64,000 nt of DNA from Acetothermia bacterium 64_32 (GCA_001508155.1 LGFI01000006.1:35157-99156); one strand, 5' to 3'. Positions 6,453 through 47,211 are shown, counted from the first letter of the stretch. Notes: generated from the sequence alone by a model not told the origin. Program-made: numbers and translations.

Positions 6453-7762
6453 CCCTGCCCGGCCTCACCCCCAGGGAGATCGTTCGGGAGCTGTCCCGCT
6501 ACATCGTGGGCCAGGAGGAGGCCAAGAGGGCGGTGGCCATCGCCTTAAGGAACCGCATCCGCCGGGCCGCCCTGCCCGAGGAGGTGCGGCGGGAGGTGCG
6601 CCCGAAAAACATCCTCATGATCGGCCCCACAGGGGTGGGGAAGACCGAGATCGCCCGGCGCCTCGCCCAGATCACCGACTCCCCCTTCCTCAAGGTGGAG
6701 GCCACCAAGTACACCGAAGTGGGGTACGTGGGGCGGGACGTGGAGTCCATGATCCGGGACCTGGTGGAGGTGGCGATCTCGCTGGTGCGGGCCCGGGAGG
6801 CCCGCAGGGTGGAGCGGGAGGCGGATAGGTTCGTTGAGGAAAGGCTCCTTGACGCCCTGCTTTCCGGGGCGGCAGGGGGGGAGGGGGCAAGGGAGCGCCT
6901 CAGGGAAAGGCTCCGGGCCGGGGAACTGGAGGACCAATGGGTGGAGATCCCGGTGAAGGAGTCGTTGGCCCCCCAGATAAACGTGTTCTCCGAGGCGGGG
7001 ATGGACCAGCTGGGGATAGATCTCTCTCAGCTTTTTGCGGGCTTCCCTGCCCCAAGGAGGCCCAAGCGGATGACGGTTCGGAAGGCGCGGGAGGTGCTCC
7101 GGGAGGAGGCCCTGGAGAGGCTTTTAAACATGGAGGAGGTGCGGGCCGAGGGGCTGCGCCTGGCCGAAGAGTCAGGGATCGTGTTCATCGACGAACTGGA
7201 TAAGCTCGCCTTGGGCGGGCCGGAGGAGCGGGGCGGGCCGGGGGTGTCCCGTCAGGGGGTGCAGCGGGACCTCCTGCCGCTCCTTGAGGGGACCACAGTG
7301 CGGACCCGGCACGGGACGGTGCGCACCGACAACATACTTTTCATCGCCGCCGGCGCCTTCTCCCAGGCCAAGCCCAGCGACCTCATGCCCGAGCTCCAGG
7401 GACGCCTCCCCATCCGGGTGGAGCTCCACCCTTTAACCGAGGAGCACTTCAAGCGGATCCTAGTGGAGCCGGAAGATGCCCTCACCAAGCAGTATCAAGC
7501 CCTGCTTTCCACGGAAGGGGTAGAGGTGGAGTTCACCGATGAGGCTGTAAGTGAGATCGCCCATGTAGCCGCCGAGCTCAACCGGGCCCTGGAGGACATC
7601 GGGGCGCGACGCCTGATAACCGTGATGGAACACCTGATGGAGGAGCTCTCGTTCTCCGCCGACCTGCACCGGGGGGAGAGGTTCGTCATAGACCGCAAGT
7701 ACGTGCAGGAGAGGGTTACCGGCCTGGCAGCCGACCTTGAACTCTCCCGCTACATCCTATAA
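6449..7762 (+). CDS. hslU: ATP-dependent protease ATPase subunit HslU
   Basis: IGPTGVGKTEIARRLA Walker A. Full-length HslU architecture. GTG start overlaps the hslV stop (GTGA). Confidence 0.95.
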   Translation: MTLPGLTPREIVRELSRYIVGQEEAKRAVAIALRNRIRRAALPEEVRREVRPKNILMIGPTGVGKTEIARRLAQITDSPFLKVEATKYTEVGYVGRDVESMIRDLVEVAISLVRAREARRVEREADRFVEERLLDALLSGAAGGEGARERLRERLRAGELEDQWVEIPVKESLAPQINVFSEAGMDQLGIDLSQLFAGFPAPRRPKRMTVRKAREVLREEALERLLNMEEVRAEGLRLAEESGIVFIDELDKLALGGPEERGGPGVSRQGVQRDLLPLLEGTTVRTRHGTVRTDNILFIAAGAFSQAKPSDLMPELQGRLPIRVELHPLTEEHFKRILVEPEDALTKQYQALLSTEGVEVEFTDEAVSEIAHVAAELNRALEDIGARRLITVMEHLMEELSFSADLHRGERFVIDRKYVQERVTGLAADLELSRYIL

Positions 7763-7814
7763 AAATAGCGGTAGGACGCCTTTCTTTGTGGACAACAACA
7801 TGGAGGTGACAGCC

Positions 7815-9062
7815 ATGTACAAGGGAAGGGGTTTTCTTCTCTTAACGTTCGGGATTCTTTCGATGGTCTTTCCGATTTTGGCCCAGGGAACACAGCGGGG
7901 TTTTGAGTTCTACACGCAATATCCGGCGTTGGTGATCTCCGAGGGGCGGGAGGTCTCCTTGGATGTCAAGCTCCATAACACCGGGCCTACCCCGGAGGAC
8001 GTGGTGCTTACGGTCTCCGGGCCGGAGGACTGGAACGGACGATTTGAGACCTCATCTTACCCCACTCTTCAGATAAGATCGGTACATCTCCTTCCCGGGC
8101 AGGAGGAGCCGCTCACGGTGCGGTTCAAGGCCAAGCCCCCGGAGGGCACCCCTGGTGGCGACTACGTCTTCACCTTGAGTGCCGTCACGGAGGATGGTGC
8201 CATCGAGCATTCCATCCAGGTGACCGTTACCCTGGAGGCGGAGGCCCCTCAGGAAGAGGAGGAGCCCGGGGAGGTGCTTCAGCTCCTTGTGGACTATCCC
8301 TCCCTGGAGAACGCGGCCGGAAAGGACTTCACCTTTACCATCCAGATCAAGAACCAGACCGACGAGGAGAAGGTGGTGGAGCTGTCCGGGCAGATCCCCT
8401 CCGGCTGGCGAGCCTACTTCACGCCACGCTGGGAGCAGGATACCCGCATCACCTCCATCAAGGTGGATGCCAACAGCACGGAGAACATCCGGTTTGTTCT
8501 GACCCCTCCTTACATGGTGCAAAAGGGCGACTACCCCATCCGGTTCATCGCCCGGGCCGGGGATTACGAGGCCGCCTTGGACCTGAAGGCGGTGGTCACC
8601 GGGAACTATGACCTGCAACTTGCCAGTGAGGCGGAGATCACCGGGGCCGGGGACACCTGGAACATCAAGGCGGTGGAGGGGAAAGAGCGGCACTTCACCC
8701 TTTATCTTTACAACGGCCTTCCCTCCAACCCCACCTCAGCCCCGGTGACGAACATCAGGTTCTACGCCACCAAGCCGGAGGGTTGGGAGGTGGAGTTCAA
8801 GCCTGAGACGGTGGAGTCCTTGCCGCCCACCCTCAGTGCCGCGGACCTGGCCAAGGTGGACGTGGTCATCACCCCGCCGGAGCGGGCCATCCCCGGGGAC
8901 TATCAGATCACCATTAACGCCTCCGGCCGGGAGGACCACGCCTCGGCCCAGCTGCGGGTGACCGTTGGTGCTTCCATGGGCTGGGGCTGGGTCGGGGTGG
9001 GGGTGGTGGTGTTCGTGGTGGCCGCCCTCACCGGGGTGTTCGTCCGCCTGGGGAGGAGGTAA
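7815..9062 (+). CDS. Secreted repeat protein with C-terminal TM anchor (NEW3/NPCBM-associated-like domains), ABC-2-transporter associated
   Basis: Signal peptide [25 protein letters not shown]. Repeated segments of ~100 aa. C-terminal hydrophobic anchor [16 protein letters not shown]. It is the first gene of an operon with an ABC ATPase and permease. A GGAGGTG RBS lies before the ATG at 7815. Confidence 0.55.
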
Positions 9063-9064
9063 GG

Positions 9065-9985
9065 GTGATGGTCGAGGCCCAGGGGCTCAAGAAGTCCTAC
9101 GGCCCGGTACAGGCGGTGGAGGGGCTGGACCTTCGGGTACAGGAGGGGGAGATCTACGGCCTTCTTGGGCCCAACGGCTCGGGGAAGACCACCACCATCC
9201 TGATGCTCCTCGGCCTCACCGAGCCCTCGGCCGGCCGGGTCCAAGTGGCGGGCTTCAACCCCACCCGGGAGCCCCTCAAGGTGAAGCGGGTGGTGGGGTA
9301 CCTCCCGGAGAATGTAGGCTTCTACGACGATCTCACCGCGCGGGAGAACCTCCGCTACATCGCCCGCCTGAACGGGATCCCGGACCGGGATTCAAAGAAA
9401 CGGATCGAGGAGGTCCTGGAGCAGGTGGGGCTTTCGGAGGTGGCCGACCGCCCGGTGGGCACCTACTCCCGGGGGATGCGTCAGCGGCTGGGGATAGCCG
9501 ACGTGCTCGTCAAGGAGCCGCGGCTTGCCATCCTGGATGAGCCCACCACCGGGATCGACCCGGAGGGGGCGAGCCAGATCCTGGACATGATCGTTAGGAT
9601 GCGAAACGAGCGGGGGATGACCATCCTGCTTTCCTCGCACCTGCTCCACCAGGTGCAGCGGGTATGCGACCGGGTGGGGATCATGCACCGGGGGAGGCTG
9701 GTGGCGGAGGGCACGGTGGACGAGCTTTCCGCCAGGACCTCCGGGGAGGGGCTGGAGTTCGAGGCCCAGGTGCGGGGGCTGAGCCCTGAGCTGGTGGCCG
9801 CCCTTAAGGGGCTGGATGGGGTGCGGGAGGTGGTTGCCCAAGGGGAGCGCCTGCGGATCCTGGCGGAGGTGGACGTGCGTTCCGCCGTGGCCCGCACCGT
9901 CCTGGAGAAGGGGGCGGAGCTCCTCGAGCTGCGCCAGCGCGCCTTCACCTTGGAGGAGATCTACCTCCGCTATTTCCAGGGGTGA
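9065..9985 (+). CDS. ABC transporter ATP-binding protein (ABC-2/NatA-like)
   Basis: Walker [10 protein letters not shown], signature [12 protein letters not shown], Walker [14 protein letters not shown]-loop SSHLL. Confidence 0.9.
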
Positions 9986-9991
9986 TCCTAA

Positions 9992-10921
9992 ATGAGGGTG
10001 GTATTCTGGAAGGAACTGGCGGACTACTTCGGCAGCAAGCGGTTCATCATCCTGTTCTTCCTCATCCTGATCGTGGCCGGGGCTTCGGCGTATCTTGCCA
10101 GCCAATCCCTGCGGGAGAGCCCTCCCCAGGACACCTCGTACGTTTATCTTGATCTCTTCACCCAGTCCTCCGGGGGCATGCCCTCTTTCCTTTCCTTTTT
10201 GGCCTTCTTCGGCCCCCTGATCGGGGTCCTCCTTGGGTTTGACGCCGTGAACTCGGAGTTCTCCCGGGGCACGGTTTCGCGGGTCCTCGCCCAGCCCATC
10301 TACCGGGACTCCTGGATCAACGGGAAGTTCCTGGCCGGGCTGGCCACGCTGGCCCTGGCCCTGGCCGGGATCATCCTCATCATCTTCGGGCTTGGGCTTT
10401 ATGCCCTGGGCTTCCCCCCGGACGGGGGGGAGCTTTCCCGCATGTTCACCTTCTTTGTGATCGGGCTCATATACCTTGGTTTTTGGCTCGCCTTGGGGAT
10501 CCTGTTTTCGGTGCTTTTCCGGCAGGCGGCGAGCTCCGCCCTGGCCTCCATCGCCGTCTGGCTTTTCTTCACCTTGTTTTTGTACATGGCGGCCGGGCTG
10601 ATCGCCGACCAGGTGGCCCCGGTGAGCCCTACCTCCCCGGCCCAGGTGTGGACGCGGAACGAGGAGATCCGCGATCTTGTGCTCCGCTTCTCCCCGGTGG
10701 CCCTGTTCGAGGAGGCCACAAGCGCCATCCTCATCCCCAGCTGGCGGGGTCTGGGGCTCGCCCAGCTCCTCACCCAGCGGGACATCCCCACCAACCCCCT
10801 GCCCTTGGGGCAGTCCCTCCTCATCGTGTGGCCGCAGCTGGTGAGCCTTATCGCCCTGACCTCGGTCTGCTTTGGCATCTCCTATGTGATCTTCATGCGC
10901 CGCGAGATCCGGTCCCTGTGA
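9992..10921 (+). CDS. ABC-2 family transporter permease
   Basis: Six predicted TM segments and the N-terminal MRVVFWKELADYFGSKRF typical of ABC-2 permeases. Confidence 0.75.
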   Translation: MRVVFWKELADYFGSKRFIILFFLILIVAGASAYLASQSLRESPPQDTSYVYLDLFTQSSGGMPSFLSFLAFFGPLIGVLLGFDAVNSEFSRGTVSRVLAQPIYRDSWINGKFLAGLATLALALAGIILIIFGLGLYALGFPPDGGELSRMFTFFVIGLIYLGFWLALGILFSVLFRQAASSALASIAVWLFFTLFLYMAAGLIADQVAPVSPTSPAQVWTRNEEIRDLVLRFSPVALFEEATSAILIPSWRGLGLAQLLTQRDIPTNPLPLGQSLLIVWPQLVSLIALTSVCFGISYVIFMRREIRSL

Positions 10922-23313: not shown

Positions 23314-24179
23314 CTAAGCCTCTCCCTTACCAGCTCTGCCACCTGGGCCGGGGTCCTGGCCACCGGGATCCCCCGGGACTCGAGGCGCTGGGCCTTGGCC
23401 TCGGCGGTGCCCTCGGTCCCGGAGATGATGGCCCCGGCGTGGCCCATCCGCTTCCCCGGCGGGGCGGAAAAGCCAGCTATGTAGGCCACCACAGGCTTTT
23501 CCATGTTCTGGGCAACGTAGTCGGCCGCCTCCTCCTCGGCGGCCCCACCGATCTCCCCCACCAGCACCACCAGCTCCGTCTCCGGGTCCTCCTCGAAGAG
23601 GGGCAGGAGCTCCACGAAGGTGGAGCCGATGATGGGGTCGCCGCCGATCCCCACCACCGTGGACTGGCCGATCCCGGCCCGGGAAAGATGGGAGGCGATC
23701 TCGTAGGTTAGGGTGCCGCTTCGGGAGATGATCCCCACCGGCCCGGGGGAGAAGACCTCGCCGGGCATGATCCCGACTTTGGACTTCCCGGGGGAGATGA
23801 GCCCCGGGCAGTTGGGGCCGATGAGGCGGGCCCCGTAGCCCCTGATCAGGTGGTAGGCCCGCAGCATGTCGTGCAGGGGGATCCCCTCGGTGATGCAAAC
23901 GAGCAGGGGGATCCCGGCTTCGGCCGCCTCCAGCATGGCGTCACAGGCGAAGGGGGCGGGCACGAATAGGATGGAGGCGTCAGCCCTGTGGTCCTCCACG
24001 GCCTGGCGCACGGAGTCGTAGACCGGGATCCCCTCGAAGGACTGCCCCCCCTTCCCCGGGGTGACCCCGGCCACCACCTTGGTGCCATAGGCCAACATCT
24101 GTTTGGTGTGAAAGGCCCCTTCGCTCCCCGTCATCCCCTGAACCAAAACGCGCGTTGCCTCGTTCACAAGGATTGCCAC
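23310..24179 (-). CDS. sucD: Succinate--CoA ligase [ADP/GDP-forming] subunit alpha
   Basis: Motifs GMTGSEG, IGPNCPG and SRSGTLTYE, with the phospho-His loop. No sucC is adjacent. Confidence 0.95.
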
Positions 24180-24296
24180 CCTGTTTCACCTCACGTTGGT
24201 GGCAAGGATAGGCCCCCAGCCCCTGTGGGGCAAGTCAGGTGGCTTGACGGCCACCGGGAGCCGATTAGACTTAACCCACCCCGGGTGGGATTGTCG

Positions 24297-24590
24297 ATGG
24301 AATACATGGGGAGTTTGCGAGAGGAGCCCCGGCTCAAGGCCCAGCTTTTGCGGCAGATCCGCACCGCCGAAGGGCACCTGGCGGGCATCCGCAAGATGGT
24401 GGAGAACGACCAGTACTGTGTGGACATCCTCAAGCAGATCGCGGCCGTGCAGGGGATCCTGTCCGGGGCAGCCCGGGAGCTGGCCCGCTCCCACACCCGG
24501 CACTGCGTGCGCCGGGCCATCCAGGAGGGCAAGGGCGACATGGCCATCGACGAGCTCTTCGAGGCCCTCAAGTACCTGAAGCACTTTTAA
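24297..24590 (+). CDS. csoR: CsoR/RcnR family metal-sensing transcriptional repressor
   Basis: LRQIRTAEGHLAGIRKMVENDQYCVDILKQIAAVQ (DUF156). Confidence 0.85.
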   Translation: MEYMGSLREEPRLKAQLLRQIRTAEGHLAGIRKMVENDQYCVDILKQIAAVQGILSGAARELARSHTRHCVRRAIQEGKGDMAIDELFEALKYLKHF

Positions 24591-24594
24591 AGTA

Positions 24595-24622
24595 AAAGGG
24601 GGCTTCAGGTAAAGCCCCCTTT
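24595..24622. terminator. Bidirectional rho-independent terminator (AAAGGGGGCTT-CAGGTA-AAGCCCCCTTT)
   Basis: 11-bp perfect stem flanked by an A-run and a T-run. It sits between the convergent csoR and metalloprotease genes. Confidence 0.6.
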
Positions 24623-24634
24623 CCAGACCGGATT

Positions 24635-25390
24635 TCAGTCCATGATGTCCGGGGTTCCCGAGCAGATGCCAAGCCCCCAGTACAAAAGTGGGTTGGAGGC
24701 GTTACGACAGTTCTTGGCGCTCTGCACGTTTGGGTTGTCGCAACAAAAGCCGCTCGGCTCCATGTTCGAGCCCGGAGTGCTCGCTGCCAGCCCACCGGAT
24801 GGGCCGGGCGGATGTGCCAGGTTCAGCGCGTGCCCCAACTCATGAGCAAGATGGTAGTAATTGACCGCCCCGGTTTGACAAGGAGGGCATGGAGGACAGG
24901 TCGCAGGGCAGTAACCAGGGCAAGGACATGGGGCAGGGATGCTAAGCTGCTGGTCACAGGTAACGATCTTCGCCGACGCCGTCCCAGATGAAAAGCACGC
25001 CCCACCTCCCCAAGAGCAAGCGAAGTCCATCCTGTCAACTACAAACACTTCCACGGCATCTGCGACGTTTACTTCTGCCAGCAGGCTTATGGCCTCCGCT
25101 TCGCTTTCCAGCACCTTGTATGCTGGTTTATTCAAGTAGATAGGGGTGTTAGAAATTATCTTGATACAACGGACGCTCCCGCACCGATTCCAAAGCTCGG
25201 CGGCCTTCCGGATAAGCGTGGAGAAGACACTCCCGGTGGCGTTGGGATCCGAGGATCCGGTTCCGATGAACACCGGCTGCACCCGTAAGACCTGGGCGGG
25301 GGAGAGGAACCTTGTCCAGGCAAATTCGATGTATACGTGCAAGCTCACGAGCCTCACCACGCCCAGTTTGCGGCCACCCTCATACACCAA
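24635..25390 (-). CDS. Metzincin-like zinc metalloprotease with Cys/Pro-rich segment
   Basis: HELGHALNLAH fits HExxHxxGxxH spacing with Asn in place of Gly. A downstream SNMEP could be the Met-turn. The Cys-rich stretch is CPCPGYCPATCPPCPPC. It lies in the lower-GC island. Confidence 0.55.
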   Translation of the reverse strand: MVYEGGRKLGVVRLVSLHVYIEFAWTRFLSPAQVLRVQPVFIGTGSSDPNATGSVFSTLIRKAAELWNRCGSVRCIKIISNTPIYLNKPAYKVLESEAEAISLLAEVNVADAVEVFVVDRMDFACSWGGGACFSSGTASAKIVTCDQQLSIPAPCPCPGYCPATCPPCPPCQTGAVNYYHLAHELGHALNLAHPPGPSGGLAASTPGSNMEPSGFCCDNPNVQSAKNCRNASNPLLYWGLGICSGTPDIMD

Positions 25391-25460
25391 CCCTCGCTCG
25401 TGGTGCTGGACGAACCAGGTAATCCTCTCAGGTAGCCTATCAGTCGCTTTTGGGAAGAAA

Positions 25461-25679
25461 CTCTATGGGTGGTTTGTACCCCTAGGCGGGGAACTGGAGG
25501 GGGTGTCTGAGGTCAAAAGGCAGGGGCGCGGCTGGCTCCTTCGCCTTTTTCCTGGGACCGAGCCCAAAGACGTCCTACAGTTACTTCTAGCACGGGGGCA
25601 CGATATTAATGAATTCAGAGCTGTAATGCCTAGTTTAGAAGACATATTCGTTCAGGTGGTGGGTGAGGGCCATGAATAG
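25461..25679 (+). pseudogene. Remnant of an ABC transporter ATP-binding protein (C-terminal ~70 aa only)
   Basis: LRLFPGTEPKDVLQLLLARGHDINEFRAVMPSLEDIFVQVVG is an ABC-2 ATPase C-terminal domain. No Walker A, Walker B or signature motif lies upstream in any frame. The region upstream is occupied by the opposite-strand metalloprotease gene. Confidence 0.5.
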
Positions 25680-26658
25680 GTTCTGGGCGGTTGCGCGGCA
25701 TGAGTTTACGGTCACCGTCAGGCGGCGAGGCTTCCTCGGCTTAACCGCCGTCATTCCTCTGCTCATCGGCCTTTTGGCAGCCCAATTGGCGGGAAGACAA
25801 AGTTCGACCCCCGGGGGTGAAACGGTGGTGGGCTTTTGGGACGGGGCTGTTCCGGGGGCAGTGGGAACAGGACCGGGTGACTTACAAACCCTTTCCCAAC
25901 CAGGAGGCCGCGATCCAGGCTTTCTCAAACGGCGAGCTCGATATCTTGATCTTCATCCCCTCCGATTACGTGGAGACAGGCGCCGTGGTCCGAATAGAGC
26001 GTGGAAGAATCGGTCTTCTTCAGGACTTAGCCCCTCCAGGCCTGGATGCCTTCCTTAGGGGCAATCTCCTCCGAGGCGAGGTGTCAAGCGATGTCCTGGA
26101 GAGGATTCAATGGCCCGCACGTGGCACCCTCTTGCAAGTGGACGAGGAAGGACAGCTTTCCCCTCCCCCGGTTTTGGACCCCGGACAGCTGATTTTCTTC
26201 GGTGCGCTGATGGTTATGATTACGTTTTCCGTGCTCACGACGTCGAGTTATTTCTTGGAAGGCCTCAGCGAGGAGAAGGAGAATCGGGTTATGGAAGTCC
26301 TGCTCTCCTCCCTTTCCCCACAGGAATTGATGTTGGGAAAGCTAGTAGGACTGGGAACGGCGGGGTTAATCCGATTAGTGCTCTGGGTGGCATTCGGAGC
26401 AGTGCTGTTGGGCGTGGCCAAGGAAACCTCGCTCACCCTTCCCTCGATGCTTGCGGAGTTGCGCTTCCCTCTCTTCGGCCCGGCCATCTCTGGGTTTCTC
26501 TACTGCTCATGGGCTTGCTACTTGGGGCAGTGGGTGGCGTGACCTCAAGCTACAGGGAGGCTGGGCAAGCCACCGGGCTGGTCATCATCCCCTACATGCT
26601 TCCCCTGTGGCTGTTGAACCCATTGATTCAAAATCCCGACGGAGGATACTTGCAGTGA
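25663..26658 (+). pseudogene. ABC-2 transporter permease disrupted by two frameshifts
   Basis: The permease-like sequence continues across three ORF-track pieces: 25663..26058 in frame 1, 25817..26542 in frame 2, and 26110..26658 in frame 1. The shifts are near G/T homopolymers at about 25850 and about 26505. Confidence 0.55.
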
Positions 26659-26826
26659 GCGCCTGTTTGGCAGTGATCTTCACGCTGAGGCTATTCCGGG
26701 CCCATCTCCTTTCGTACGGGCAAAACCCAGGGATTTTGCGGATCGTCCGCACAATGATATGGGGAGGAGGGAAGCTGGGTATGGGGGGAGCCTGAGCGGT
26801 CAGAACTGGCGCGAGGAGGGTGCTTC

Positions 26827-28338
26827 TTAGAACTCCACCTCCCAGGCGGTGGTGAGGGAGGGGGAGCCCTCAGGGCTCTCGGGATCGCTGCTCTCCCAGG
26901 AGAGCTCAAAGCTCGCCTCCTTGCCCAGGGAGAGTTCCAGGGTCACAAGAAGCCGGGTGAGGGAAAAGAGGGCCTCTTCAACAGGGCCCAGGTACATGCA
27001 CAAAGAAAGCTCCCATCTCTCAGACGGCCCATACCCCCTGCGGGCCAGGACAAGTAGCCCATCCTCGTACTCACCGGTGGCCGCTATCCTCTTGAAGTCG
27101 GCATCCGTGTACCAGCTCGGCCTGGGGGAAGGCGGGCGCTCAAACACCAGCAAAACCTGCCATTTCGTGGCCACAAGGTGCCCTTTTGCCCCCACCCCAT
27201 AGAGGGAAAGCTCGGACACCCCCCCTTTCCCCGTTGCCCCGGCATACAGGGACACACACCCCCCGGATACGGACAGGCTAGGGGTGCAAGAGAGCACGAG
27301 CCCCGAGGGGGAAAGCTCAAGCGAGATGTCGAACCTCATCCCAGCGAGGCCGGGCAATCCCGCCAGTGTCCCGCCAAGCGAGATCCCCTCACCAAGCGAG
27401 AGCTCAAACTCCCCTACGCCCCCGAAAAGGGGCCAGCCCTCCCCCTCGAGGCAGAGTTCGGCAAAACTTGTTTTACCTCCTTCCCCCGAGAAGACGCCGG
27501 AAAGCTCCAGGGTGCGTCCGGGCCAGGGCTCTGAATTCCAGCCCAGCGTGTACTCTTCAAAGTGGCTGTACCACACGTAGACCTTGACCAACTCTGGCTC
27601 GATGGGCTCCCGCAGCAGCCACCCGTCCGGGTATTTGGCGTCCAGATACGCCAGCGCCTCCGGGGCCAAGGCGAACGGCTCGAAAGCCTCCTTGGGTTGG
27701 AAGAGGACGCGCAGATTGTACTCCGTCCTCGACCTCCACCTGCCATCCACAAACGCCTTAAGCCGGACCCTCCCTGCGACGAACGCCCTCTCCCTAACCC
27801 CGGCTGAGGTCACCGCAAGCGGCCGCCAGCGTCCCCCCTCCCACCGGTAGGCTTCGGTGAACATGAAGTAGTCGATCTCAGAGGCGGAGTTGGACCGGTG
27901 GTAAGCCTTGGCCCAAAGCTCCCCGGAGGCCAGGGGAAGCTCGCCCTTGATCCAGCCGTAGCGCCAGTGGGGGCCCGGGACCTGCCACAGGAGCTGGGGG
28001 AACCTCTCGTCTTCTATGGTCCTGTAAAGGTGCTTGAGGACCTTGCCTTGGGGGGAGAAGGCAGCCTTGCCCTCCAGGGTCAGCCGATAGTCGAGGGCAA
28101 ACCCTGCAAGCTGGAACGTTTGGTCCGAGAAAAGGCCCTGCTCGATTTCGGACTCGCTTTTCAGGGTCCAGGCGCCAAGGGGAACTTCAAGGGTGAGGGT
28201 GGCCTGGTGGAGGGCAAACCGTGGGTAGAGGGAAAGCTCACCCTCCCACTGGCCCGAAAGCGGCTCGGGCAGCCCGAAAGCGGGTACGAGCAACGCACCC
28301 ACCAGGGCTGCCCACAGCACCCTGAAACAAGCCGACAC
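26827..28338 (-). CDS. Secreted outer-membrane-type protein ending in a C-terminal Phe (WEVEF)
   Basis: Signal peptide MSACFRVLWAALVGALLVPAFG. Alternating-polarity beta-strand-like stretches and a terminal aromatic residue. Confidence 0.55.
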   Translation of the reverse strand: MSACFRVLWAALVGALLVPAFGLPEPLSGQWEGELSLYPRFALHQATLTLEVPLGAWTLKSESEIEQGLFSDQTFQLAGFALDYRLTLEGKAAFSPQGKVLKHLYRTIEDERFPQLLWQVPGPHWRYGWIKGELPLASGELWAKAYHRSNSASEIDYFMFTEAYRWEGGRWRPLAVTSAGVRERAFVAGRVRLKAFVDGRWRSRTEYNLRVLFQPKEAFEPFALAPEALAYLDAKYPDGWLLREPIEPELVKVYVWYSHFEEYTLGWNSEPWPGRTLELSGVFSGEGGKTSFAELCLEGEGWPLFGGVGEFELSLGEGISLGGTLAGLPGLAGMRFDISLELSPSGLVLSCTPSLSVSGGCVSLYAGATGKGGVSELSLYGVGAKGHLVATKWQVLLVFERPPSPRPSWYTDADFKRIAATGEYEDGLLVLARRGYGPSERWELSLCMYLGPVEEALFSLTRLLVTLELSLGKEASFELSWESSDPESPEGSPSLTTAWEVEF

Positions 28339-41676: not shown

Positions 41677-42819
41677 ATGTCTTTCGAATGGCACCAATGG
41701 TCTCTTGCTGGTTTTTTCGGCGCCCTTTTTCTCATCGCCCTCTCCAACCTCTGGGGGATCCCCCGGCTTCGAAGAAAGGCCCCGCCTGATTTCCCCAAGG
41801 TTTCCATCCTCATACCCATGCGCGATGAGGCCGGGAACGCGAAGACAGCGATCTCATCGGTCTTGGCCCTCGACTACCCGGATTTTGAGCTGCTGGTTTA
41901 CGAGGAGGGATCGGTGGACGCGACGTGGGAGGTCCTCAAGAGCGTTTCCGATCCACGGCTGAGGGTCATCAAGGGGAGTGCCCCGCCGCCTGGGTGGACT
42001 GGGAAGAACTGGGCCTGCCATAACCTGGCCAATGAGGCAAAAGGTGAACTCCTCTTGTTCGTCGATGCCGACGTGCGCCTGGAGGCGCAAGCACTCCGCG
42101 CTGCGGTGGCAGAACTTCTAAATGGTCGCTATCACATGGTCTCCGTGCTCCCCCACCAGGAAGTGGGTTCGCTGGGGGAACTGCTTTTGGTGTCTTTAAT
42201 TCCGTGGTCGGTGATGAGCTTTTTCCCGTTGCTCTTGGTGAAGGCGACCAGGATCATAAAGATCCAGGCTACGGTGGGGCAATTTATCCTGGTGAGGCGA
42301 GATGCCTACGAAGAAGTCGGAGGTCATAAGGCGATAAAGGGAGAAGTGTTGGACGATTTCGAGCTCGGCTGGAGGATTAGGGGACACGGCTTCAGGGTGG
42401 GCCTCTTCTATGGCGGAGATCACGTGCGCTGCCGGATGTACCGGGGCTTTAGGGAAGCACTCGACGGACTCTCCAAGAACCTGTTCCTCGTCTTCCGGCG
42501 TCGGTTGGTCTTGTTTGCCTTCGTTTGGACGTTCGTGCTCTACAGCTCCTGGGAGCCGCTTGTGGTTTCGGTGGCGGCGGGCCTGGGGGCACCTGTCCCG
42601 GCGGGGACATTTCGCGCTTCCTTGTTGGCCACGTCCCTCTCCTTGGCATTGTGGGAGATCACAACCCTCAGGTTCGGCTTGCCCCTTTACCTTCCGTTTA
42701 TCCACCCGCTCGTCACGGCCACCGCCTTCGCCACCGCGGTCCGGTCCGCTTACTGGCACCTTGCCGGACGAGGTACCTGGAAGGGACGCACCATTCACGT
42801 GGAAAGGAGGGAGAGTTGA
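41677..42819 (+). CDS. Membrane-anchored family 2 glycosyltransferase
   Basis: N-terminal TM, VSILIPMRDE, a DXD-type motif (FVDADV), and C-terminal TM helices. Confidence 0.8.
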   Translation: MSFEWHQWSLAGFFGALFLIALSNLWGIPRLRRKAPPDFPKVSILIPMRDEAGNAKTAISSVLALDYPDFELLVYEEGSVDATWEVLKSVSDPRLRVIKGSAPPPGWTGKNWACHNLANEAKGELLLFVDADVRLEAQALRAAVAELLNGRYHMVSVLPHQEVGSLGELLLVSLIPWSVMSFFPLLLVKATRIIKIQATVGQFILVRRDAYEEVGGHKAIKGEVLDDFELGWRIRGHGFRVGLFYGGDHVRCRMYRGFREALDGLSKNLFLVFRRRLVLFAFVWTFVLYSSWEPLVVSVAAGLGAPVPAGTFRASLLATSLSLALWEITTLRFGLPLYLPFIHPLVTATAFATAVRSAYWHLAGRGTWKGRTIHVERRES

Positions 42820-43619
42820 AAAAGTGGGCGATCCTAGCTGTTGTCTTTGCTGTTGTCTTTTTGTCCTTTTCTCTCCTGGCTGGGGAGAAGCTCGAGTGGC
42901 CGGATCTAGCTGGTCAATGGGCGCTGTTCCAGGTGGTATCTGATTACTGGGAAGCGCCGCTCCTCGGGGAACGTCCCCGCCGGATCTACCAGATCGCAAA
43001 GATCGCGATCGCGCAGGACGGCCCCGACCTTGTGCTTCGTTCGGAGGGGATATGTCTTATGAAATTCGACATGGGGACATCCATGGTGCGGCTTTCGGTG
43101 TCCCCCGAGTTCCTGAAGGTGGCGCATATCGGCCCTTTACGGGGTAGCCTCAGCCGGGAAGGGGATGAGGTGCTCCTGAAGATCCCCACCTTCACCGTGT
43201 TAAACGGCGTGAGGCTTGCGGAACCTGAAACCGAACCCCTTCCCACTTCCCCGGAAGATCCCCGGGTGGTGGATATAGACGGCGATGGGAAACCTGGTTT
43301 CACCGTGTACGTGAGGATATTAGGGTTTATTCCCGGGGAGACCTATGTGGTCCAGAGGTTGCGCCAAGAGTACCATGGCAGGGTGTGGGGACCGGATCTC
43401 GTGCGTGGGGTTATCGCTTGGGAAGATGAGCAGGTGACTTTGGGGGCCTCCGGGAGCTTCTTCCTTATTTCTGGAAGGGGAAGGCCCGATCCTGATCCAA
43501 ATCACTCCTTCTTCATCCTAAGGAGGATCACCGGCACGGAAACCTGTGACGAACTAATCGGGCTTTTCCAGGAGGAGCTGGAAGGTCAAGCTTCCTTTGG
43601 TATGGTGAATTGCTTGTGA
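42816..43619 (+). CDS. Secreted/periplasmic hypothetical protein
   Basis: TTG start behind RBS GGAAAGGAGG. Signal peptide KKWAILAVVFAVVFLSFSLLAG. TTGA coupling to the GT2 gene. The ORF track draws an upstream extension from 42525, which I judge spurious. Confidence 0.5.
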   Translation: MKKWAILAVVFAVVFLSFSLLAGEKLEWPDLAGQWALFQVVSDYWEAPLLGERPRRIYQIAKIAIAQDGPDLVLRSEGICLMKFDMGTSMVRLSVSPEFLKVAHIGPLRGSLSREGDEVLLKIPTFTVLNGVRLAEPETEPLPTSPEDPRVVDIDGDGKPGFTVYVRILGFIPGETYVVQRLRQEYHGRVWGPDLVRGVIAWEDEQVTLGASGSFFLISGRGRPDPDPNHSFFILRRITGTETCDELIGLFQEELEGQASFGMVNCL

Positions 43620-43625
43620 TAACAA

Positions 43626-44288
43626 ATGTGGAACTTTGAGCGGGGTTTGGCCAAGGTAGTGGGGATGATGCTCCACCGAGAACTTAAGGCGGGCGTGCGG
43701 GCGGTATACCTAGAGGGGAAATTCCCACCGCCGCCCTTCGTCCTCGCCATGAATCACCACTCATACTTCGACGGGCACCTCGTCTATCTCCTGTTTCGGA
43801 GTTTCGGCTTTAGGGGGAAGCTGCTCATTTCCCCGGAGAACGTGGCCGCGTTTCCCATCTTCAGGCCCCTGGGGGCGCTTGAGGCAAGCCGGGTGCGGGC
43901 CGCACTGCAGGCGCTCGGGGCGGGGGAGGTGGTGGCGGTTTTCCCCGAAGGGGATCTGCGCTGCCACGGGAAGCTCGGCGAGCTTAAGCGGGGGGCGGTT
44001 TTCTTGGCCCAAAAAGCAAGGGTCCCATTGGTCCCTTGTGCGGCCCGCCTTTTTCCACGGGGCTTTCCCCGGCCGGAGATCTATATTTGGATCGGCGATC
44101 CCGTGGATCCAGACTTAGGAGCCCTGCGTGTGGCTTTGGAGAGGATGCTTTCCGCGATGGACGAGCTCGTAGAAAAGACGCATCCCCGCGAGCCCATCCC
44201 CGGCTTTCACCCGCTTTTCACCGGCCATCGCGGCCTCGACGAGCAGATGGCTGGGATCTCCCGCGCTTTGGGGAGGTTCTTGAGGTAA
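43626..44288 (+). CDS. Lysophospholipid acyltransferase (LPLAT family)
   Basis: NHHSYFD (HxxxxD) and FPEGD motifs. Confidence 0.75.
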   Translation: MWNFERGLAKVVGMMLHRELKAGVRAVYLEGKFPPPPFVLAMNHHSYFDGHLVYLLFRSFGFRGKLLISPENVAAFPIFRPLGALEASRVRAALQALGAGEVVAVFPEGDLRCHGKLGELKRGAVFLAQKARVPLVPCAARLFPRGFPRPEIYIWIGDPVDPDLGALRVALERMLSAMDELVEKTHPREPIPGFHPLFTGHRGLDEQMAGISRALGRFLR

Positions 44289-44300
44289 CAAGTACCTTTC

Positions 44301-44864
44301 TTACCCCGATTCGATGTTGGGAGATTGATCTATTGGCACGAACTTTTCCCACTCATACCCGTTCCGCTTCAGGATCGACCTGATTTCTTCCAGTGTGGGC
44401 TCGGGCAAGGTGGGGGAGCGGCTCAGGATCCAGCCATACTTTCTCTTCGGCTCGCCCACCACGGCCCAGGAGTAGTCGGGCCCCAAAGCCAGGATCCAGT
44501 AGTTCCCTGGGAAAAGCCAGTGCCCAAGGAACTTGAAGAAGCTCACCCTGAGCTTCCCCGGCTCTTTGGGGTTCGGGACCCAAGCACGGCCGCGGGCGAC
44601 TTTTTTCTCGCCACGGGCGTTGAAGCACTCGTTGACTACCTCGATTGTGCCATCGGGAAGGAGGGTGTAAGTGGCGGTGGTCCCTGACTTACAGCCCCGC
44701 TCGAACCAGGTGGGGATGTGGGCGATAGCGTACCACCTGCCCACGTAGTGCTCGAGATCCACTTTTTCCACGACTTCTGGCAAGGAAGTCGGCCGCTCAA
44801 CCATTGCCACCAGGGCAATAAGCCCCACCGCAGCCAGAAAAAGCCACTCCGTGTTCGAAAGCAT
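44301..44864 (-). CDS. blc: Bacterial lipocalin (Blc-like)
   Basis: YVGRWYAIAHIP and the SWAVVGEPKRKYGWILSR lipocalin signature. Confidence 0.85.
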   Translation of the reverse strand: MLSNTEWLFLAAVGLIALVAMVERPTSLPEVVEKVDLEHYVGRWYAIAHIPTWFERGCKSGTTATYTLLPDGTIEVVNECFNARGEKKVARGRAWVPNPKEPGKLRVSFFKFLGHWLFPGNYWILALGPDYSWAVVGEPKRKYGWILSRSPTLPEPTLEEIRSILKRNGYEWEKFVPIDQSPNIESG

Positions 44865-45027
44865 CTCGCCACCTCCTCATCAATGCTTTCCGCCCCGGAG
44901 ATCCGAGCGCGGGGTCGGAAGATGTCGTTCATGTGGATTCAGTTTAGCAGATAAGCCGGCATTGACCGACTGCCAGTGGCCCCCACTCTCTATACAGCAT
45001 AGGCAAAGGGCGCCCGCCAAGAGCCGC

Positions 45028-45221
45028 ACGCTGGAGAACTGGCTCTGGAAGGCGGCCTGTGCCATCCGCAGCCCCGCCGACGTCCCGAAGTTCAAGGATT
45101 ACATCCTGCCCTGTTCTTCCAGAAGTGGCTTTCCGATGTGTTAGACGATGAGGCGGCCCGCCGGGTCGCCCCGACCACCCACGCTGGATTGACCCTTGAC
45201 CGCTCTCTAACCGCCATTTAA
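45028..45221 (+). pseudogene. N-terminal remnant of a type I R-M methyltransferase subunit (HsdM_N-like), frameshifted and truncated
   Basis: LENWLWKAACAIRSPADVPKFKDYILP, then after a -1 shift LFFQKWLSDVLDDEAA, matches the HsdM N-terminal pattern LWKAADxLRG...[22 protein letters not shown]. No MTase core follows. Confidence 0.4.
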
Positions 45222-45256
45222 ACTGGTCTGAGACTGGTCCATAAGAGGTGAAGAGG

Positions 45257-45493
45257 ATGGAAGAGATTGGAGCTTATGAGGCCAAGGCGCAGTTTTCCGA
45301 GCTCCTACGGCGTGTGGAGAAGGGTGAACGGTTCGTGATTACCCGACATGGGGTTCCCGTGGCCGTTTTGGGACCTGTCTCACCCCGTCACCGGGACGTC
45401 AGGGAAGTGATCAGGGCCCTAAAGGAATTCCGGAAAAAACACACCCTGGGCGGTTTGAAGATCAAAGACCTGATAGAGGAAGGACGCATGTGA
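45257..45493 (+). CDS. vapB: Type II antitoxin VapB (Phd/YefM-like)
   Basis: AYEAKAQFSELLRRVEKGERFVITRHGVPVAVL. 4-nt overlap with vapC. Confidence 0.8.
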   Translation: MEEIGAYEAKAQFSELLRRVEKGERFVITRHGVPVAVLGPVSPRHRDVREVIRALKEFRKKHTLGGLKIKDLIEEGRM

Positions 45494-45924
45494 TGAAACG
45501 GGTTCTGTTTGTGCTAGACGCATCAGTGGCCCTGGCCTGGGGGTTAGAGGACGAAAGTAACCCATATACCGATGCGGCTCTGGATGCGCTGGAACACGGA
45601 GAAGCACTCGTTCCATCTATCTGGCCGCTGGAAGTCAGTAATGCCCTTCTGATGGCGGAGCGGAGGGAGCGCATCTCCCAGGCCATGGTAGCGGAATTTC
45701 TGGAGTACCTTCGATCATTGCCCATCGTTGTGGAGCAATCCGGTCCGGAACAGATCTTCGGGGAAGTGCTCCTTCTGGCGCGCGAACAGGGCCTCTCCGT
45801 CTATGACGCGGCCTATCTGGACCTTGCCCTTCGCCGCGGACTTCCTTTGGCCACACAGGACCGGGCCCTTAGGACCGCCGCCTTCAGGATGGGCGTTGAG
45901 ATCTTCGGCCCGCAGGAGGGATGA
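45490..45924 (+). CDS. vapC: PIN-domain ribonuclease toxin VapC
   Basis: PIN acidic residues (VLDASV, D..YDAAYLDLA, ATQD). Confidence 0.85.
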   Translation: MMKRVLFVLDASVALAWGLEDESNPYTDAALDALEHGEALVPSIWPLEVSNALLMAERRERISQAMVAEFLEYLRSLPIVVEQSGPEQIFGEVLLLAREQGLSVYDAAYLDLALRRGLPLATQDRALRTAAFRMGVEIFGPQEG

Positions 45925-46122
45925 TGGAACTCCGTCGCGCAGGGTCTGCCGGAGCCCGAGTTTCAGAACCAGGGGTGGCCTTCTGGTCACTTTAGCCAAG
46001 GACCCCCTACACGCCGGAGGGTTTGTGGCGCGGGGGCTCAGCGAACGCAGATCCGAAAGTAGGGAGGGCCTTTTGTTGCCGAAAGTGAGAGGGGATTCGG
46101 GGAACAGAAAGGGGCAAGAGGC

Positions 46123-46422
46123 ATGATGGGAAAAATTGAGTTGCCCGAGGCGGAAATTGCGGCGTTTTGCCGTCGCTATAAGGTGCGGAGGCTTTCCCTT
46201 TTTGGCTCCGTACTGCGGGAGGATTTCGGTCCTAAGAGCGATATCGATATGCTTGTGGAATTCGAGCCCGGAGCACAGGTGGGTTTCTTGACCCTCAGCC
46301 GCATGGCACGGGAACTTTCCACCATCCTGGGCCGTCCGGTGGACCTCGTGCCGAGGAGCGGCCTCAAACCGGCAATCCGCGACGCCATACTGAAAGAAGA
46401 GCACGTTATTTATGCGACCTGA
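46123..46422 (+). CDS. mntA: Nucleotidyltransferase antitoxin MntA
   Basis: GSVLREDFGPKSDIDMLVEF. Confidence 0.85.
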   Translation: MMGKIELPEAEIAAFCRRYKVRRLSLFGSVLREDFGPKSDIDMLVEFEPGAQVGFLTLSRMARELSTILGRPVDLVPRSGLKPAIRDAILKEEHVIYAT

Positions 46423-46756
46423 GCGGCTGTATCTGCTGGACATCATAGAAGCAGCCGATGCCATCGCTCGCTTCCTCACCGATGTGGATGAGGGAACTTT
46501 CATGCAGGACGAATTAAGGCAAAGCGCGGTGCTGCACAAGCTTATTGTCATAGGTGAGGATGCGGCCCGTTTGCCCGCCGAATTCAAGGAGCAACATCCG
46601 GAGATCCCATGGTCGGACATTGTGGCTTTTCGTAACATTGCGGTTCATGCGTATTTCTCGGTCGACTGGCGAATTGTCTGGGTAACAGCCACGCAGGAAG
46701 TGCCTGAATTGCGCCGCCAGATCGCTTTACTGCTAGAGGACCTTGGCGATGAATGA
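46412..46756 (+). CDS. hepT: HEPN-domain toxin HepT (DUF86)
   Basis: Rx4HxY motif RNIAVHAY. Overlaps mntA. Confidence 0.85.
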   Translation: MRPERLYLLDIIEAADAIARFLTDVDEGTFMQDELRQSAVLHKLIVIGEDAARLPAEFKEQHPEIPWSDIVAFRNIAVHAYFSVDWRIVWVTATQEVPELRRQIALLLEDLGDE

Positions 46757-46940
46757 GGTGAAAAACGTATCGCACGATGACTACCGCATGACCGAACTCG
46801 GCCCCCTGCTCGAAGAGTAGCAGGTGGTGAGGTTATTGAAGCCATTAAAACCAGTCTGTGGTGGAAAACACTTGACCATGCAAAAGAACGCCTGCGTGCG
46901 GTCCTAGCGCGCAAAGCAACGCGCTGATTTCCAGGAGCGT

Positions 46941-47168: not shown

Positions 47169-47173
47169 AGCTG

Positions 47174-47211
47174 ATGTTCACGATTAAGCTATGTTCACGC
47201 ATCGTGAACGT
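47174..47211 (+). promoter_or_regulatory. Candidate operator: ATGTTCACG at 47174 and 47191 as direct repeats, plus inverted CGTGAACGT at 47203
   Basis: Read directly. It lies about 170 bp upstream of the AbiEi-like ORF. Confidence 0.3.

What the first reader, a model, noticed from the sequence alone, without database searches (positions are those of the whole stretch)
24595..26830. Lower-GC island: an intact metzincin-like protease gene embedded in a decaying ABC-2 exporter operon
From just after the csoR terminator to the outer-membrane protein gene, GC drops to the mid-50s by eye, against ~67% in the flanks. The island carries a 251-aa metalloprotease ORF on the minus strand. It also carries an ABC ATPase gene of which only the C-terminal ~70 aa (…PSLEDIFVQVVG) remains. 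A third gene is an ABC-2 permease readable only by switching frame 1 to 2 to 1. An intact paralogous ABC-2 operon, with the same N-terminal permease style, lies at 7.8-10.9 kb. This looks like horizontally acquired DNA in which the transporter is pseudogenised while the protease is retained.
Basis: partly seen in the sequence, partly recalled or inferred. Interest (0 to 1): 0.6.

Follow-up and report, generated by a model that had tools for sequence, protein, structure and literature searches.

The report
Truncated protease fused to dead transporter
The low-GC stretch is a gene-decay scar in a Bipolaricaulota (Acetothermia) genome: a native secreted zinc protease gene has lost its first 179 codons and now abuts, head to head, the broken remains of an ABC-2 exporter operon, so none of the three genes is intact and the finding is largely ordinary.

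Summary
The sequence observations mostly hold. GC is 57.7% in 24595-26830, against 63.4% for the window and about 68% to the left. An ABC ATPase C-terminal remnant is present. The ABC-2 permease is frame-broken. Three independently assembled contigs, 99.9% identical, show the same breaks, so they are not sequencing errors.

The central interpretation fails: the 251-aa 'intact' protease is a 5'-truncated remnant. Its more than 100 homologues are about 425 aa. They carry a signal peptide, an 8-stranded beta-barrel and an adamalysin/fragilysin-like metzincin domain. The window keeps only residues 180-422.

The nearest relatives (94% nt) have the order 503-aa gene, full protease, csoR, sucD, with no transporter. 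There, 741 nt stand where the window has about 1.4 kb of ABC debris (25367 to about 26765). That debris has an ATPase cut at codon 143, an internal deletion of about 149 nt, and a permease with a +1 frameshift, 16-nt and 106-nt deletions and a lost stop codon.

The protease is therefore native, and it is low-GC in relatives too. Only the ABC piece is extra, and it may have been acquired. The remnant shows no relaxed selection (dN/dS 0.11), so the truncation is probably recent. The 7.7-10.9 kb operon is only a distant ABC relative. Interest is low.

The parts
24595..24622 (.). GC-rich hairpin (AAAGGGGGCTT...AAGCCCCCTTT) between the convergent csoR and protease stop codons. It is a likely bidirectional terminator and is native sequence.
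   Evidence: Read directly from the sequence. This stretch is colinear with L001/L002.
24635..25366 (-). 5'-truncated remnant of a secreted metzincin-type metallopeptidase gene. It holds codons 180-422 of a 422-aa protein plus the stop codon. It retains the last two strands of the N-terminal beta-barrel and the whole catalytic domain (HELGHALNLAH, Met-turn SNMEPSG). The signal peptide and six of the eight barrel strands are gone.
   Evidence: BLASTP against P0001 gives 94% identity, query residues 9-251 against subject residues 180-422. 188 homologues were found, mostly 420-440 aa. The stretch is colinear with L001 1161-1892.
25363..25366 (.). Left junction. The 4-nt microhomology CCAG is shared by the protease sequence (as in L001) and the ATPase sequence (as in L049).
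   Evidence: Junction alignment. BLAST end points are 25366 for L001 homology and 25364 for ATPase homology.
25367..25390 (-). Non-homologous 8-codon leader of the listed ORF (TTG start, MVYEGGRK). It is the antisense of the ATPase Walker B piece. An in-frame stop lies upstream at 25463-25465.
25364..25417 (+). ABC ATPase fragment 1: residues 143-160 of a 300-aa DrrA-like ATPase (QFAATLIHQPSLVVLDEP, Walker B). Everything upstream is missing, including Walker A, the Q-loop and the signature motif.
   Evidence: tblastn with the L010/L049 ATPase gives 17 of 18 identical residues.
25416..25679 (+). ABC ATPase fragment 2: residues 210-300, the C-terminal DrrA1-3_C domain, in a different frame. Residues 161-209 (D-loop, H-loop) are deleted, about 149 nt.
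   Evidence: Pfam PF13732 at 2.3e-9. tblastn gives 58% identity to L010/L049.
25672..25842 (+). ABC-2 permease piece 1 (residues 1-57, first transmembrane helix). It is followed by a +1 frameshift somewhere between about 25826 and 25845.
25841..26503 (+). ABC-2 permease piece 2 (residues 59-279). This is the 241-aa ORF annotated in GenBank as an ABC permease of Acetothermia bacterium 64_32. It is followed by a 16-nt deletion.
   Evidence: Pfam PF12698 at 7.5e-15. tblastn gives 64% identity.
26518..26643 (+). ABC-2 permease piece 3 (residues 290-331). It is followed by a 106-nt deletion that removes residues 332-367.
26646..26765 (+). ABC-2 permease piece 4 (residues 368-407). The stop codon is lost: the frame reads IWG and then runs on into GGKLGMGGA*.
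26762..26826 (.). Right junction and native intergenic DNA downstream of the 503-aa gene. It aligns with the L001 intergenic region (GGGAGGGAAGCT...) with an 18-nt indel. BLAST-level colinearity starts at 26806.
26827..28338 (-). Native 503-aa gene that flanks the scar.

Best explanation
The region is a scar of gene decay in a Bipolaricaulota (Acetothermia 64_32-type) genome.

**Ancestral state.** This arrangement is kept in the closest sampled relatives. On one strand lay the 503-aa gene followed by a 422-aa secreted metallopeptidase gene, and the latter ended tail to tail with csoR. The peptidase has a signal peptide, an 8-stranded beta-barrel and an adamalysin/fragilysin-like metzincin domain.

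**State in the window lineage.** About 1.4 kb of a DrrA-type ABC-2 exporter operon (ATPase plus ABC2_membrane_3 permease) occupies the place of the protease promoter and its first 179 codons. The left junction joins protease codon 180 head to head with ATPase codon 143 across a 4-nt microhomology. The right junction lies at the permease stop codon.

**Shown.** The transporter remnant carries at least four further disabling lesions. All three genes are therefore structurally inactivated. The protease remnant cannot be secreted, and six of its eight barrel strands are gone.

**Inferred, most likely order of events.** The ABC operon, possibly acquired horizontally, first sat next to the intact protease gene and decayed there. 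A recent microhomology-mediated deletion across the divergent 5' ends then removed the start of both genes. The recency is inferred from the remnant, which has no frameshift and shows no relaxation of purifying selection.
For: - **Truncation.** 188 homologues were found, nearly all 420-440 aa, and the window ORF aligns only to residues 180-422 of P0001 at 94% identity.
- **Synteny.** L001 and L002 are colinear with the window at 94% nt identity on both sides. L001 1-419 matches window 27224-26806, and L001 1161-3815 matches window 25366-22710. L001 has 741 nt where the window has 25367-26805.
- **Content of the extra DNA.** The nearest intact operons (L010, L049; ATPase 300 aa, permease 407 aa) serve as reference. 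The window shows ATPase residues 143-160 and 210-300 only. The permease is in four frames, with a +1 insertion, 16-nt and 106-nt deletions and a lost stop.
- **Reality of the lesions.** L006 is 100% identical over 8 kb. Three Logan contigs from separate runs are 99.87-99.94% identical and span the junctions and all the breaks.
- **Junctions.** The left junction has a CCAG microhomology. No IS-like terminal repeats flank the insert, and there is no Rfam hit.
- **Native status of the protease.** It has the same GC and GC3 as the intact L001 copy (0.58 and 0.68-0.69). Family members are usually 2-6 GC points below their flanks.
- **Recency.** dN/dS between window and L001 is 0.106 (39 synonymous, 15 non-synonymous differences). 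Polarised replacements are 5 window-derived, 8 L001-derived and 2 ambiguous.
- **Context elsewhere.** None of the 38 protease loci in other genomes has this ABC operon next to it.
Against: - The order of events is not shown. A single illegitimate replacement by an already degraded fragment would give the same end state.
- No outgroup shares the local synteny. It therefore cannot be decided whether the ABC operon entered the window lineage or was lost from the L001/L002 lineage.
- The clean reading frame and dN/dS of 0.11 in the remnant are also what a still-functional gene would show.
- Absence of expression is inferred only. The evidence is the missing signal peptide, no sigma-70-like promoter match and a poorly spaced Shine-Dalgarno-like sequence. 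There are no transcript or protein data.
- The donor of the ABC piece is unknown. The closest intact relatives are only 59-66% identical and sit on 2-kb contigs of unknown taxon.
Confidence: 0.8

Rival explanations
1. This is one horizontally acquired low-GC island in which the transporter decays while an intact metzincin gene is retained and functional.
For: - The whole stretch has low GC and low GC3.
- The protease ORF has no internal stop or frameshift and keeps all family-invariant residues.
- Its dN/dS is 0.11.
Against: - The ORF lacks 179 N-terminal residues that are present in more than 100 homologues, including the signal peptide.
- The protease part is colinear at 94% with relatives that lack the transporter, so the two parts do not share a history.
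- The low GC of the protease predates the event.
Confidence: 0.03
2. The truncated ORF is still a working gene. It would encode a leaderless metzincin consisting mainly of the catalytic domain, kept by selection. It would be translated from a new start created at the junction and perhaps transcribed by read-through from the 503-aa gene upstream on the same strand.
For: - dN/dS is 0.106, and there is no excess of window-lineage replacements (5 against 8).
- The 243 retained codons hold no frameshift, while the adjacent 1.4 kb has at least four.
- The complete catalytic domain is kept.
- No terminator-like site was found between the upstream gene and the remnant on the minus strand.
Against: - The cut falls inside a confidently predicted beta-barrel and leaves two orphan strands.
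- There is no signal peptide, although the family has one throughout and is rich in conserved cysteines that suggest extracytoplasmic disulfides.
- No promoter-like site was found, and the Shine-Dalgarno-like GAGGG is 0-3 nt from the TTG/GTG starts.
- The gene caller behind L006 did not call it.
- A recent truncation explains the same statistics. By my rough Poisson bound, neutral evolution for up to about 13% of the branch is compatible with the counts.
Confidence: 0.1
3. One-step origin. A single illegitimate recombination replaced 741 nt of native DNA with an incoming fragment. That fragment was foreign or came from elsewhere in the genome, and it was already a degraded ABC-2 pseudogene.
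For: - Both junctions are simple, with a 4-nt microhomology on the left.
- No intermediate state (full protease plus adjacent ABC operon) was found among 5.8 billion proteins or in the genome and metagenome scans.
Against: - Head-to-head loss of both 5' ends is the classic outcome of one deletion across a divergent gene pair.
- The fragment would have to end exactly at the permease stop codon.
- The ABC piece has several indels, while the protease remnant shows no sign of neutral evolution. This suggests different ages of inactivation, but the rate argument is rough.
Confidence: 0.25
4. An artefact. The junctions or frameshifts come from chimeric MAG assembly or homopolymer sequencing errors.
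For: The sequence comes from a metagenome-assembled genome. One frameshift lies near short G runs at about 25826-25860.
Against: - Three contigs assembled independently from different SRA runs match at 99.87-99.94%. All three cover the right junction and every frame break, and two of them (L007, L008) also cover the left junction. A GenBank contig is identical.
- Two of the breaks are 16-nt and 106-nt deletions, not homopolymer slips.
Confidence: 0.02

Closest known systems
Adamalysin/reprolysin-like and fragilysin-like metzincins (MEROPS M12B / M10C; e.g. ADAM-8, atrolysin C, ADAMTS-5, Bacteroides fragilis MPII and profragilysin-3)
   Same: - The zinc motif HELGHxxxxxH is present.
- A nearly invariant Met lies 17 residues after the third His.
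- An N-terminal domain precedes the catalytic domain, as the prodomain does in profragilysin.
- Half of the family gives weak Pfam Reprolysin_5 hits.
   Different: - Sequence similarity is below every curated threshold. The window ORF scores 13.9 bits against a cut-off of 27, P0001 gets no Pfam or NCBIfam hit, and PDB sequence matches have E >= 0.16.
- The Gly of HExxHxxGxxH is Asn or Asp here.
- The N-terminal domain is an 8-stranded beta-barrel of NspA/OmpW/YceI/PsbO type, not a known metzincin prodomain.
- The window copy is only a fragment.
DrrAB-type ABC-2 exporters (DrrA-like ATPase with a DrrA1-3_C domain plus an ABC2_membrane_3 permease, YhaP/NatB-like architecture)
   Same: - Gene order is ATPase then permease, with overlapping stop and start codons.
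- The Walker B motif and the C-terminal DrrA1-3_C domain are present.
- The permease has an N-terminal transmembrane helix, a large extracytoplasmic loop and C-terminal transmembrane helices.
   Different: - Only 108 of 300 ATPase residues remain. Walker A, the Q-loop, the signature motif and the H-loop are absent.
- The permease is broken in three places, lacks about 46 residues and has lost its stop codon.
- The closest intact relatives are only 59-66% identical.
Bacterial pseudogene formation by microhomology-mediated deletion and decay of horizontally acquired DNA
   Same: - The two remnants are truncated and face each other head to head.
- The junction has a 4-nt microhomology.
- The ABC piece carries several frameshifting indels and larger deletions.
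- It has atypical composition.
- It is absent from the syntenic site in the closest relatives.
   Different: - No mobility genes, tRNA or flanking repeats mark an island.
- One of the two decayed partners, the protease, is a resident gene rather than part of the extra DNA.

Membership tests
Metzincin metallopeptidases (clan MA(M)) | Extended zinc-binding motif HExxHxxGxxH/D, with three ligands and the catalytic Glu | tested here: inconclusive
   HELGHALNLAH is present in the window ORF. H354, E355, H358 and H364 are invariant in 108 homologues. The canonical Gly position holds Asn or Asp, so the motif is met for the ligands but not for the Gly.
Metzincin metallopeptidases (clan MA(M)) | Conserved Met-turn downstream of the third zinc ligand | tested here: inconclusive
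   M381 in S-x-MEPSGF is at least 90% conserved and lies 17 residues after H364. Its position under the zinc site was not checked in the model.
Metzincin metallopeptidases (clan MA(M)) | Catalytic-domain fold (five-stranded sheet, active-site helix, C-terminal helix) | tested here: met
   [not shown]
Pfam Reprolysin_5 (PF13688, M12B-like) | Score at or above the gathering threshold (27 bits) | tested here: not met
   The window ORF scores 13.9 bits, E 0.067. P0001 has no hit. 54 of 108 family members give weak hits, the best at E 1.5e-5.
Intact member of its own protein family (the ~425-aa Bipolaricaulota/Methanothrix metzincin family) | Signal peptide plus complete N-terminal beta-barrel (residues 1-213) | tested here: not met
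   The alignment starts at residue 180 of P0001. The barrel strands run from residue 25 to 213. No other copy of the N-terminal part exists in the window.
Functional ABC-2 exporter operon | ATPase with Walker A, Q-loop, ABC signature, Walker B and H-loop in one reading frame | tested here: not met
   Only residues 143-160 (Walker B) and 210-300 remain, in two frames.
Functional ABC-2 exporter operon | Uninterrupted ABC2_membrane_3 permease ORF (about 407 aa) | tested here: not met
   The gene is in four pieces in frames 1, 2, 1, 0, with a +1 insertion, 16-nt and 106-nt deletions and a lost stop codon. The domain itself is recognisable at 55.3 bits against a cut-off of 31.6.
Horizontally acquired genomic island | Absent from the syntenic site of close relatives | tested here: met
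   This is met only for 25367 to about 26765, the ABC piece. It is not met for 24635-25366, the protease, which is colinear with L001/L002.
Horizontally acquired genomic island | Atypical base composition or codon usage | tested here: met
   GC is 57%. GC3 is 0.53-0.69 against 0.78-0.91 in neighbouring genes. The nearest homologues, L010 and L049, have the same GC of 56.8%. The window has other equally low-GC stretches.
Horizontally acquired genomic island | Mobility hallmarks (integrase or transposase, tRNA target, flanking direct or inverted repeats) | tested here: not met
   No significant flanking repeats were found. The Rfam scan of 23500-28000, which includes the tRNA family, returned no hit; no dedicated tRNA scan (find_trnas) was run. 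Every ORF in the stretch is accounted for by the protease, the ATPase or the permease.
Pseudogene | Relaxed selection (dN/dS approaching 1) in the remnant | tested here: not met
   The protease remnant has dN/dS 0.106 against L001, and its lineage-specific replacements are not elevated. This could not be tested for the ABC piece, which has no close intact relative.

The most novel reading that the evidence does not exclude
The truncated ORF is not dead. The deletion would have created a leaderless, largely prodomain-free metzincin that stays in the cytoplasm, is translated from a start codon supplied by the antisense of the ABC ATPase remnant, and is kept by purifying selection. This would be a natural case of a secreted protease being re-purposed by 5' truncation.
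Probability: 0.08. Interest if true: 0.5.

Novelty: new member of a known kind. Interest (0 to 1): 0.2.

Why it matters
It matters mainly as a correction. A tidy story of an acquired island that keeps a useful protease while its transporter rots turns out to be a single scar in which all three genes are broken, and in which the protease is the resident gene.

For annotation of Bipolaricaulota MAGs, the 177-aa and 241-aa ORFs called here should be flagged as pseudogene fragments. One of them is deposited as 'ABC transporter, permease protein'. The uncalled protease remnant should be flagged in the same way.

The by-product may be of more lasting interest. An uncharacterised family of about 425-aa secreted metzincins has no Pfam or NCBIfam model. 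Its members carry an N-terminal 8-stranded beta-barrel. The family is shared by Bipolaricaulota, Methanothrix, Desulfuromonadales and Chloroflexi from anaerobic habitats.

Tried and rejected
- **Recent duplicate of the 7.7-10.9 kb operon.** blastn and tblastx of 25367-26805 against the whole window found nothing. tblastn gave only 33% identity for the ATPase and nothing for the permease.
- **An intact or closer copy of the ABC operon.** The protein search gave only the same broken 241-aa ORF and 59%-identical proteins on 2-kb contigs. The donor therefore stays unknown.
- **An outgroup with the same synteny, to decide insertion against loss.** Of the 38 genome loci carrying the protease, none has the 503-aa gene, csoR or this ABC operon adjacent. 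This was inconclusive.
- **Natural short (catalytic-domain-only) family members.** The short hits checked begin 63-124 nt from contig ends, so they are not evidence.
- **First structure model.** With a 20-sequence alignment the catalytic domain had pLDDT 30-50 and was unusable. It was redone with 108 sequences.
- **Sequence search of the PDB with the family profile.** Only non-significant metzincin hits came back, E >= 0.16.
- **Promoter scan.** No sigma-70-like site was found in 24300-27000. The promoter type of this phylum is not known to fit that consensus, so this is weak evidence.
- **Repeat and Rfam scans.** These found no mobile-element ends or RNA genes.
- **MAFFT global nucleotide alignment.** It misplaced the Walker B piece, putting one large terminal gap instead. 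The tblastn placement (17 of 18 identical residues) was used.

Full report
**1. The observation**

- The stretch 24595-26830 has 57.7% GC. The whole window has 63.4%, the 2.5 kb to the left about 67-69%, and the right flank about 62-64%.
- The drop is real but not exceptional. It ranks 64th lowest of 1236 equal-length windows, and 42-49 kb and 55.5-57.5 kb are as low or lower.
  - a 251-aa minus-strand ORF (24635-25390) with HELGHALNLAH;
  - a plus-strand ORF whose last 56 residues or so hit Pfam DrrA1-3_C (38.3 bits, cut-off 27.4);
  - a 241-aa ORF that hits ABC2_membrane_3 (55.3 bits, cut-off 31.6).
- csoR (PF02583) ends at 24590 and is followed by a GC-rich hairpin at 24595-24622.

**2. The protease is not intact**

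- A search of 5.8 billion proteins returned 188 homologues. Almost all are 420-440 aa, and most named ones are from Bipolaricaulota.
- The window ORF aligns to residues 180-422 of the best hit (P0001, 422 aa, 94% identity). Its first 8 residues are unrelated.
- The homologues begin with a signal peptide.
- An AlphaFold2 model of P0001 built on 108 sequences has mean pLDDT 92.6 and pTM 0.90.
- 'Metzincin-like' is therefore right at the fold level. At the sequence level no curated threshold is reached.
- The break at residue 180 falls inside the barrel. It leaves two orphan strands, no signal peptide and the catalytic domain.
- On the minus strand the frame is closed by a stop at 25463-25465, so no longer N-terminus is available.
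- No other copy of the gene or of its 5' part lies in the window.

**3. What replaced the 5' end**

- Two metagenome contigs that encode P0001 (L001, L002) are colinear with the window at 94% nt identity on both sides.
  - L001 1-419 matches window 27224-26806, the 3' end of the 503-aa gene.
  - L001 1161-3815 matches window 25366-22710, which holds the protease 3' part, csoR and sucD.
- Between these blocks L001 has 741 nt, made of the intergenic region and the first 537 nt of the protease gene. The window has 1439 nt there (25367-26805).
- A gapped alignment moves the right boundary to about 26762-26767. From there the window again resembles the L001 intergenic region, with an 18-nt indel.
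- The extra DNA is therefore about 1.4 kb. The protease part is resident DNA, not part of an island.

**4. Anatomy of the extra DNA**

The reference is the nearest intact operons: L010, and L049 with a 300-aa ATPase and a 407-aa permease.

| Feature | Window coordinates | State relative to L049 |
|---|---|---|
| ATPase Walker B piece | 25364-25417 | residues 143-160, 17 of 18 identical; everything upstream absent |
| ATPase internal deletion | junction at about 25416/25417 | residues 161-209 lost, about 149 nt, with a frame change |
| ATPase C-terminal part | 25416-25679 | residues 210-300 |
| Permease piece 1 | 25672-25842 | residues 1-57, then a +1 insertion |
| Permease piece 2 | 25841-26503 | residues 59-279, then a 16-nt deletion |
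| Permease piece 3 | 26518-26643 | residues 290-331, then a 106-nt deletion |
| Permease piece 4 | 26646-26765 | residues 368-407, stop codon lost |

- The permease frames run 1, 2, 1, 0, which matches indels of +1, -16 and -106.
It missed the fourth piece, the internal ATPase deletion and the Walker B piece.
- The left junction shows a CCAG microhomology between the protease and ATPase sequences.
- No IS-like terminal repeats, RNA genes or mobility genes are present.

**5. Not an artefact**

- The window is identical over 8 kb to GenBank contig DMDO01000013.1 (GCA_003445465.1).
- The 241-aa ORF is deposited as an ABC permease of Acetothermia bacterium 64_32. That MAG was described as coming from an oil reservoir (PMC6092417).
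- Three contigs assembled independently from SRR25293831, SRR14699989 and SRR28876213 are 99.87-99.94% identical. All three span the right junction and every frame break. Two of them also span the left junction.
Neither is met.

**6. Composition and origin**

| Sequence | GC3 |
|---|---|
| sucD, csoR | 0.90-0.91 |
| 503-aa gene | 0.78 |
| protease remnant | 0.68 |
| intact L001 protease | 0.69 |
| ABC pieces | 0.53-0.69 |
| L049 genes | 0.67-0.71 |

- In most Bipolaricaulota loci the protease gene is 2-6.5 GC points below its flanks. Its low GC is therefore an old property of the gene, not a mark of this event.
- The ABC piece has the GC of its nearest homologues (56.8%) and is missing from the syntenic site of the closest relatives. 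A foreign origin is plausible.
- No donor closer than 59-66% protein identity was found.
- No outgroup shares the local synteny, so gain in the window lineage cannot be separated from loss in the L001 lineage.
- The 7.7-10.9 kb operon encodes a NEW3-domain protein, an ABC_tran ATPase and an ABC2_membrane_2 permease. It is intact, but it belongs to a different subfamily and shows no close similarity.

**7. Timing (inference)**

- Between the window and L001, the protease remnant has 39 synonymous and 15 non-synonymous differences. dN/dS is 0.106, against 0.058 for sucD and 0.25 for csoR.
- Polarised with 18 outgroup sequences, 5 replacements are window-derived, 8 are L001-derived and 2 are ambiguous.
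- If the window branch carries about half of dS (about 0.13), full neutrality would predict roughly 70 replacements in 552 non-synonymous sites. By my rough Poisson bound, the observed 5-7 allow neutral evolution over at most about 13% of that branch.
- The adjacent ABC DNA carries at least four disabling indels. The roughly 220 nt of alignable intergenic DNA shows five small indels over the whole divergence.
- I therefore favour a two-step history. The ABC operon lay beside an intact protease gene and decayed there. A recent microhomology-mediated deletion across the divergent 5' ends then truncated both genes.
- A one-step replacement by an already degraded fragment cannot be excluded.
- A still-selected catalytic-domain ORF also cannot be excluded. 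I rate it at about 0.1, because the cut destroys a folded domain and removes the signal peptide of a cysteine-rich secreted family.

**8. Comparison with known systems and verdict**

- The full-length family works like an adamalysin/fragilysin-type secreted metzincin with an unusual N-terminal 8-stranded barrel. It is not a member of any curated family.
- The transporter remnant derives from a DrrAB-like ABC-2 exporter.
- The configuration as a whole is ordinary bacterial gene decay.
- The finding is scored low. The key claim, an intact and retained protease embedded in an acquired operon, is refuted.

Noticed in passing
P0001-P0120; loci L011-L046 (e.g. L030, L037 Methanothrix; L041 Malonomonas rubra DSM 5091 8001-9230; L044 Chloroflexi): The full-length protease belongs to an uncharacterised family of about 425 aa. 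The architecture is signal peptide, then an 8-stranded beta-barrel, then a Cys-rich metzincin domain. It has no Pfam or NCBIfam model. It occurs patchily in Bipolaricaulota, the archaeon Methanothrix, Desulfuromonadales/Geobacter and Chloroflexi, which suggests lateral spread among anaerobic community members. One host is a cultured strain, so the family is testable.
   Followed up: partly
L026 10821-11036; L047 8016-8255 (Acetothermia UBA3571); L043 8001-8660: Other genomes also hold partial copies of this protease gene. They cover residues 350-422, 343-422 and 204-422 and do not lie at contig ends. Truncated copies may therefore be recurrent in this family.
   Followed up: no
window 24635-25366 versus neighbouring genes: Synonymous divergence from L001 is higher in the protease remnant (dS 0.26) than in sucD, csoR and the 503-aa gene (0.11-0.15). 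This is unexplained. It could reflect weaker codon-usage constraint, a different local history or recombination.
   Followed up: no
Homologues were seen only in L001/L002 among the loci fetched. The label is unverified.
   Followed up: partly
window 42000-49000: This is the largest low-GC stretch of the window (53.6-59% GC in 1-kb windows, minimum at 46.5-47.5 kb). It carries a GT2 glycosyltransferase, an acyltransferase, a bacterial lipocalin, an AbiEi-type antitoxin and several ORFs with no family hit. It is a better candidate for a variable or acquired region than the finding itself.
   Followed up: partly
window 7737-10921: An intact three-gene unit: a 441-aa protein with three NPCBM_assoc/NEW3 repeats, an ABC ATPase and an ABC2_membrane_2 permease. 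Its first gene is not a permease.
   Followed up: partly
L007-L009 (window 25274/25339/25449 to 26851/26866): All three independent Logan contigs stop within a few hundred bases of the two junctions. This may reflect assembly-graph branching where strains with and without the ABC fragment coexist in those samples.
   Followed up: no
window 25146-25679 (+) and 25817-26542 (+): Public gene calls for this contig list a 177-aa and a 241-aa protein here. The 241-aa one is deposited as 'ABC transporter, permease protein'. Both are pseudogene fragments. The first 82 codons (25146-25390) of the 177-aa ORF are the antisense of the 251-aa protease ORF (74 of them of the protease-derived part, 25146-25366), and the next 26 nt up to 25416 are not ATPase C-terminal coding sequence either.
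   Followed up: yes
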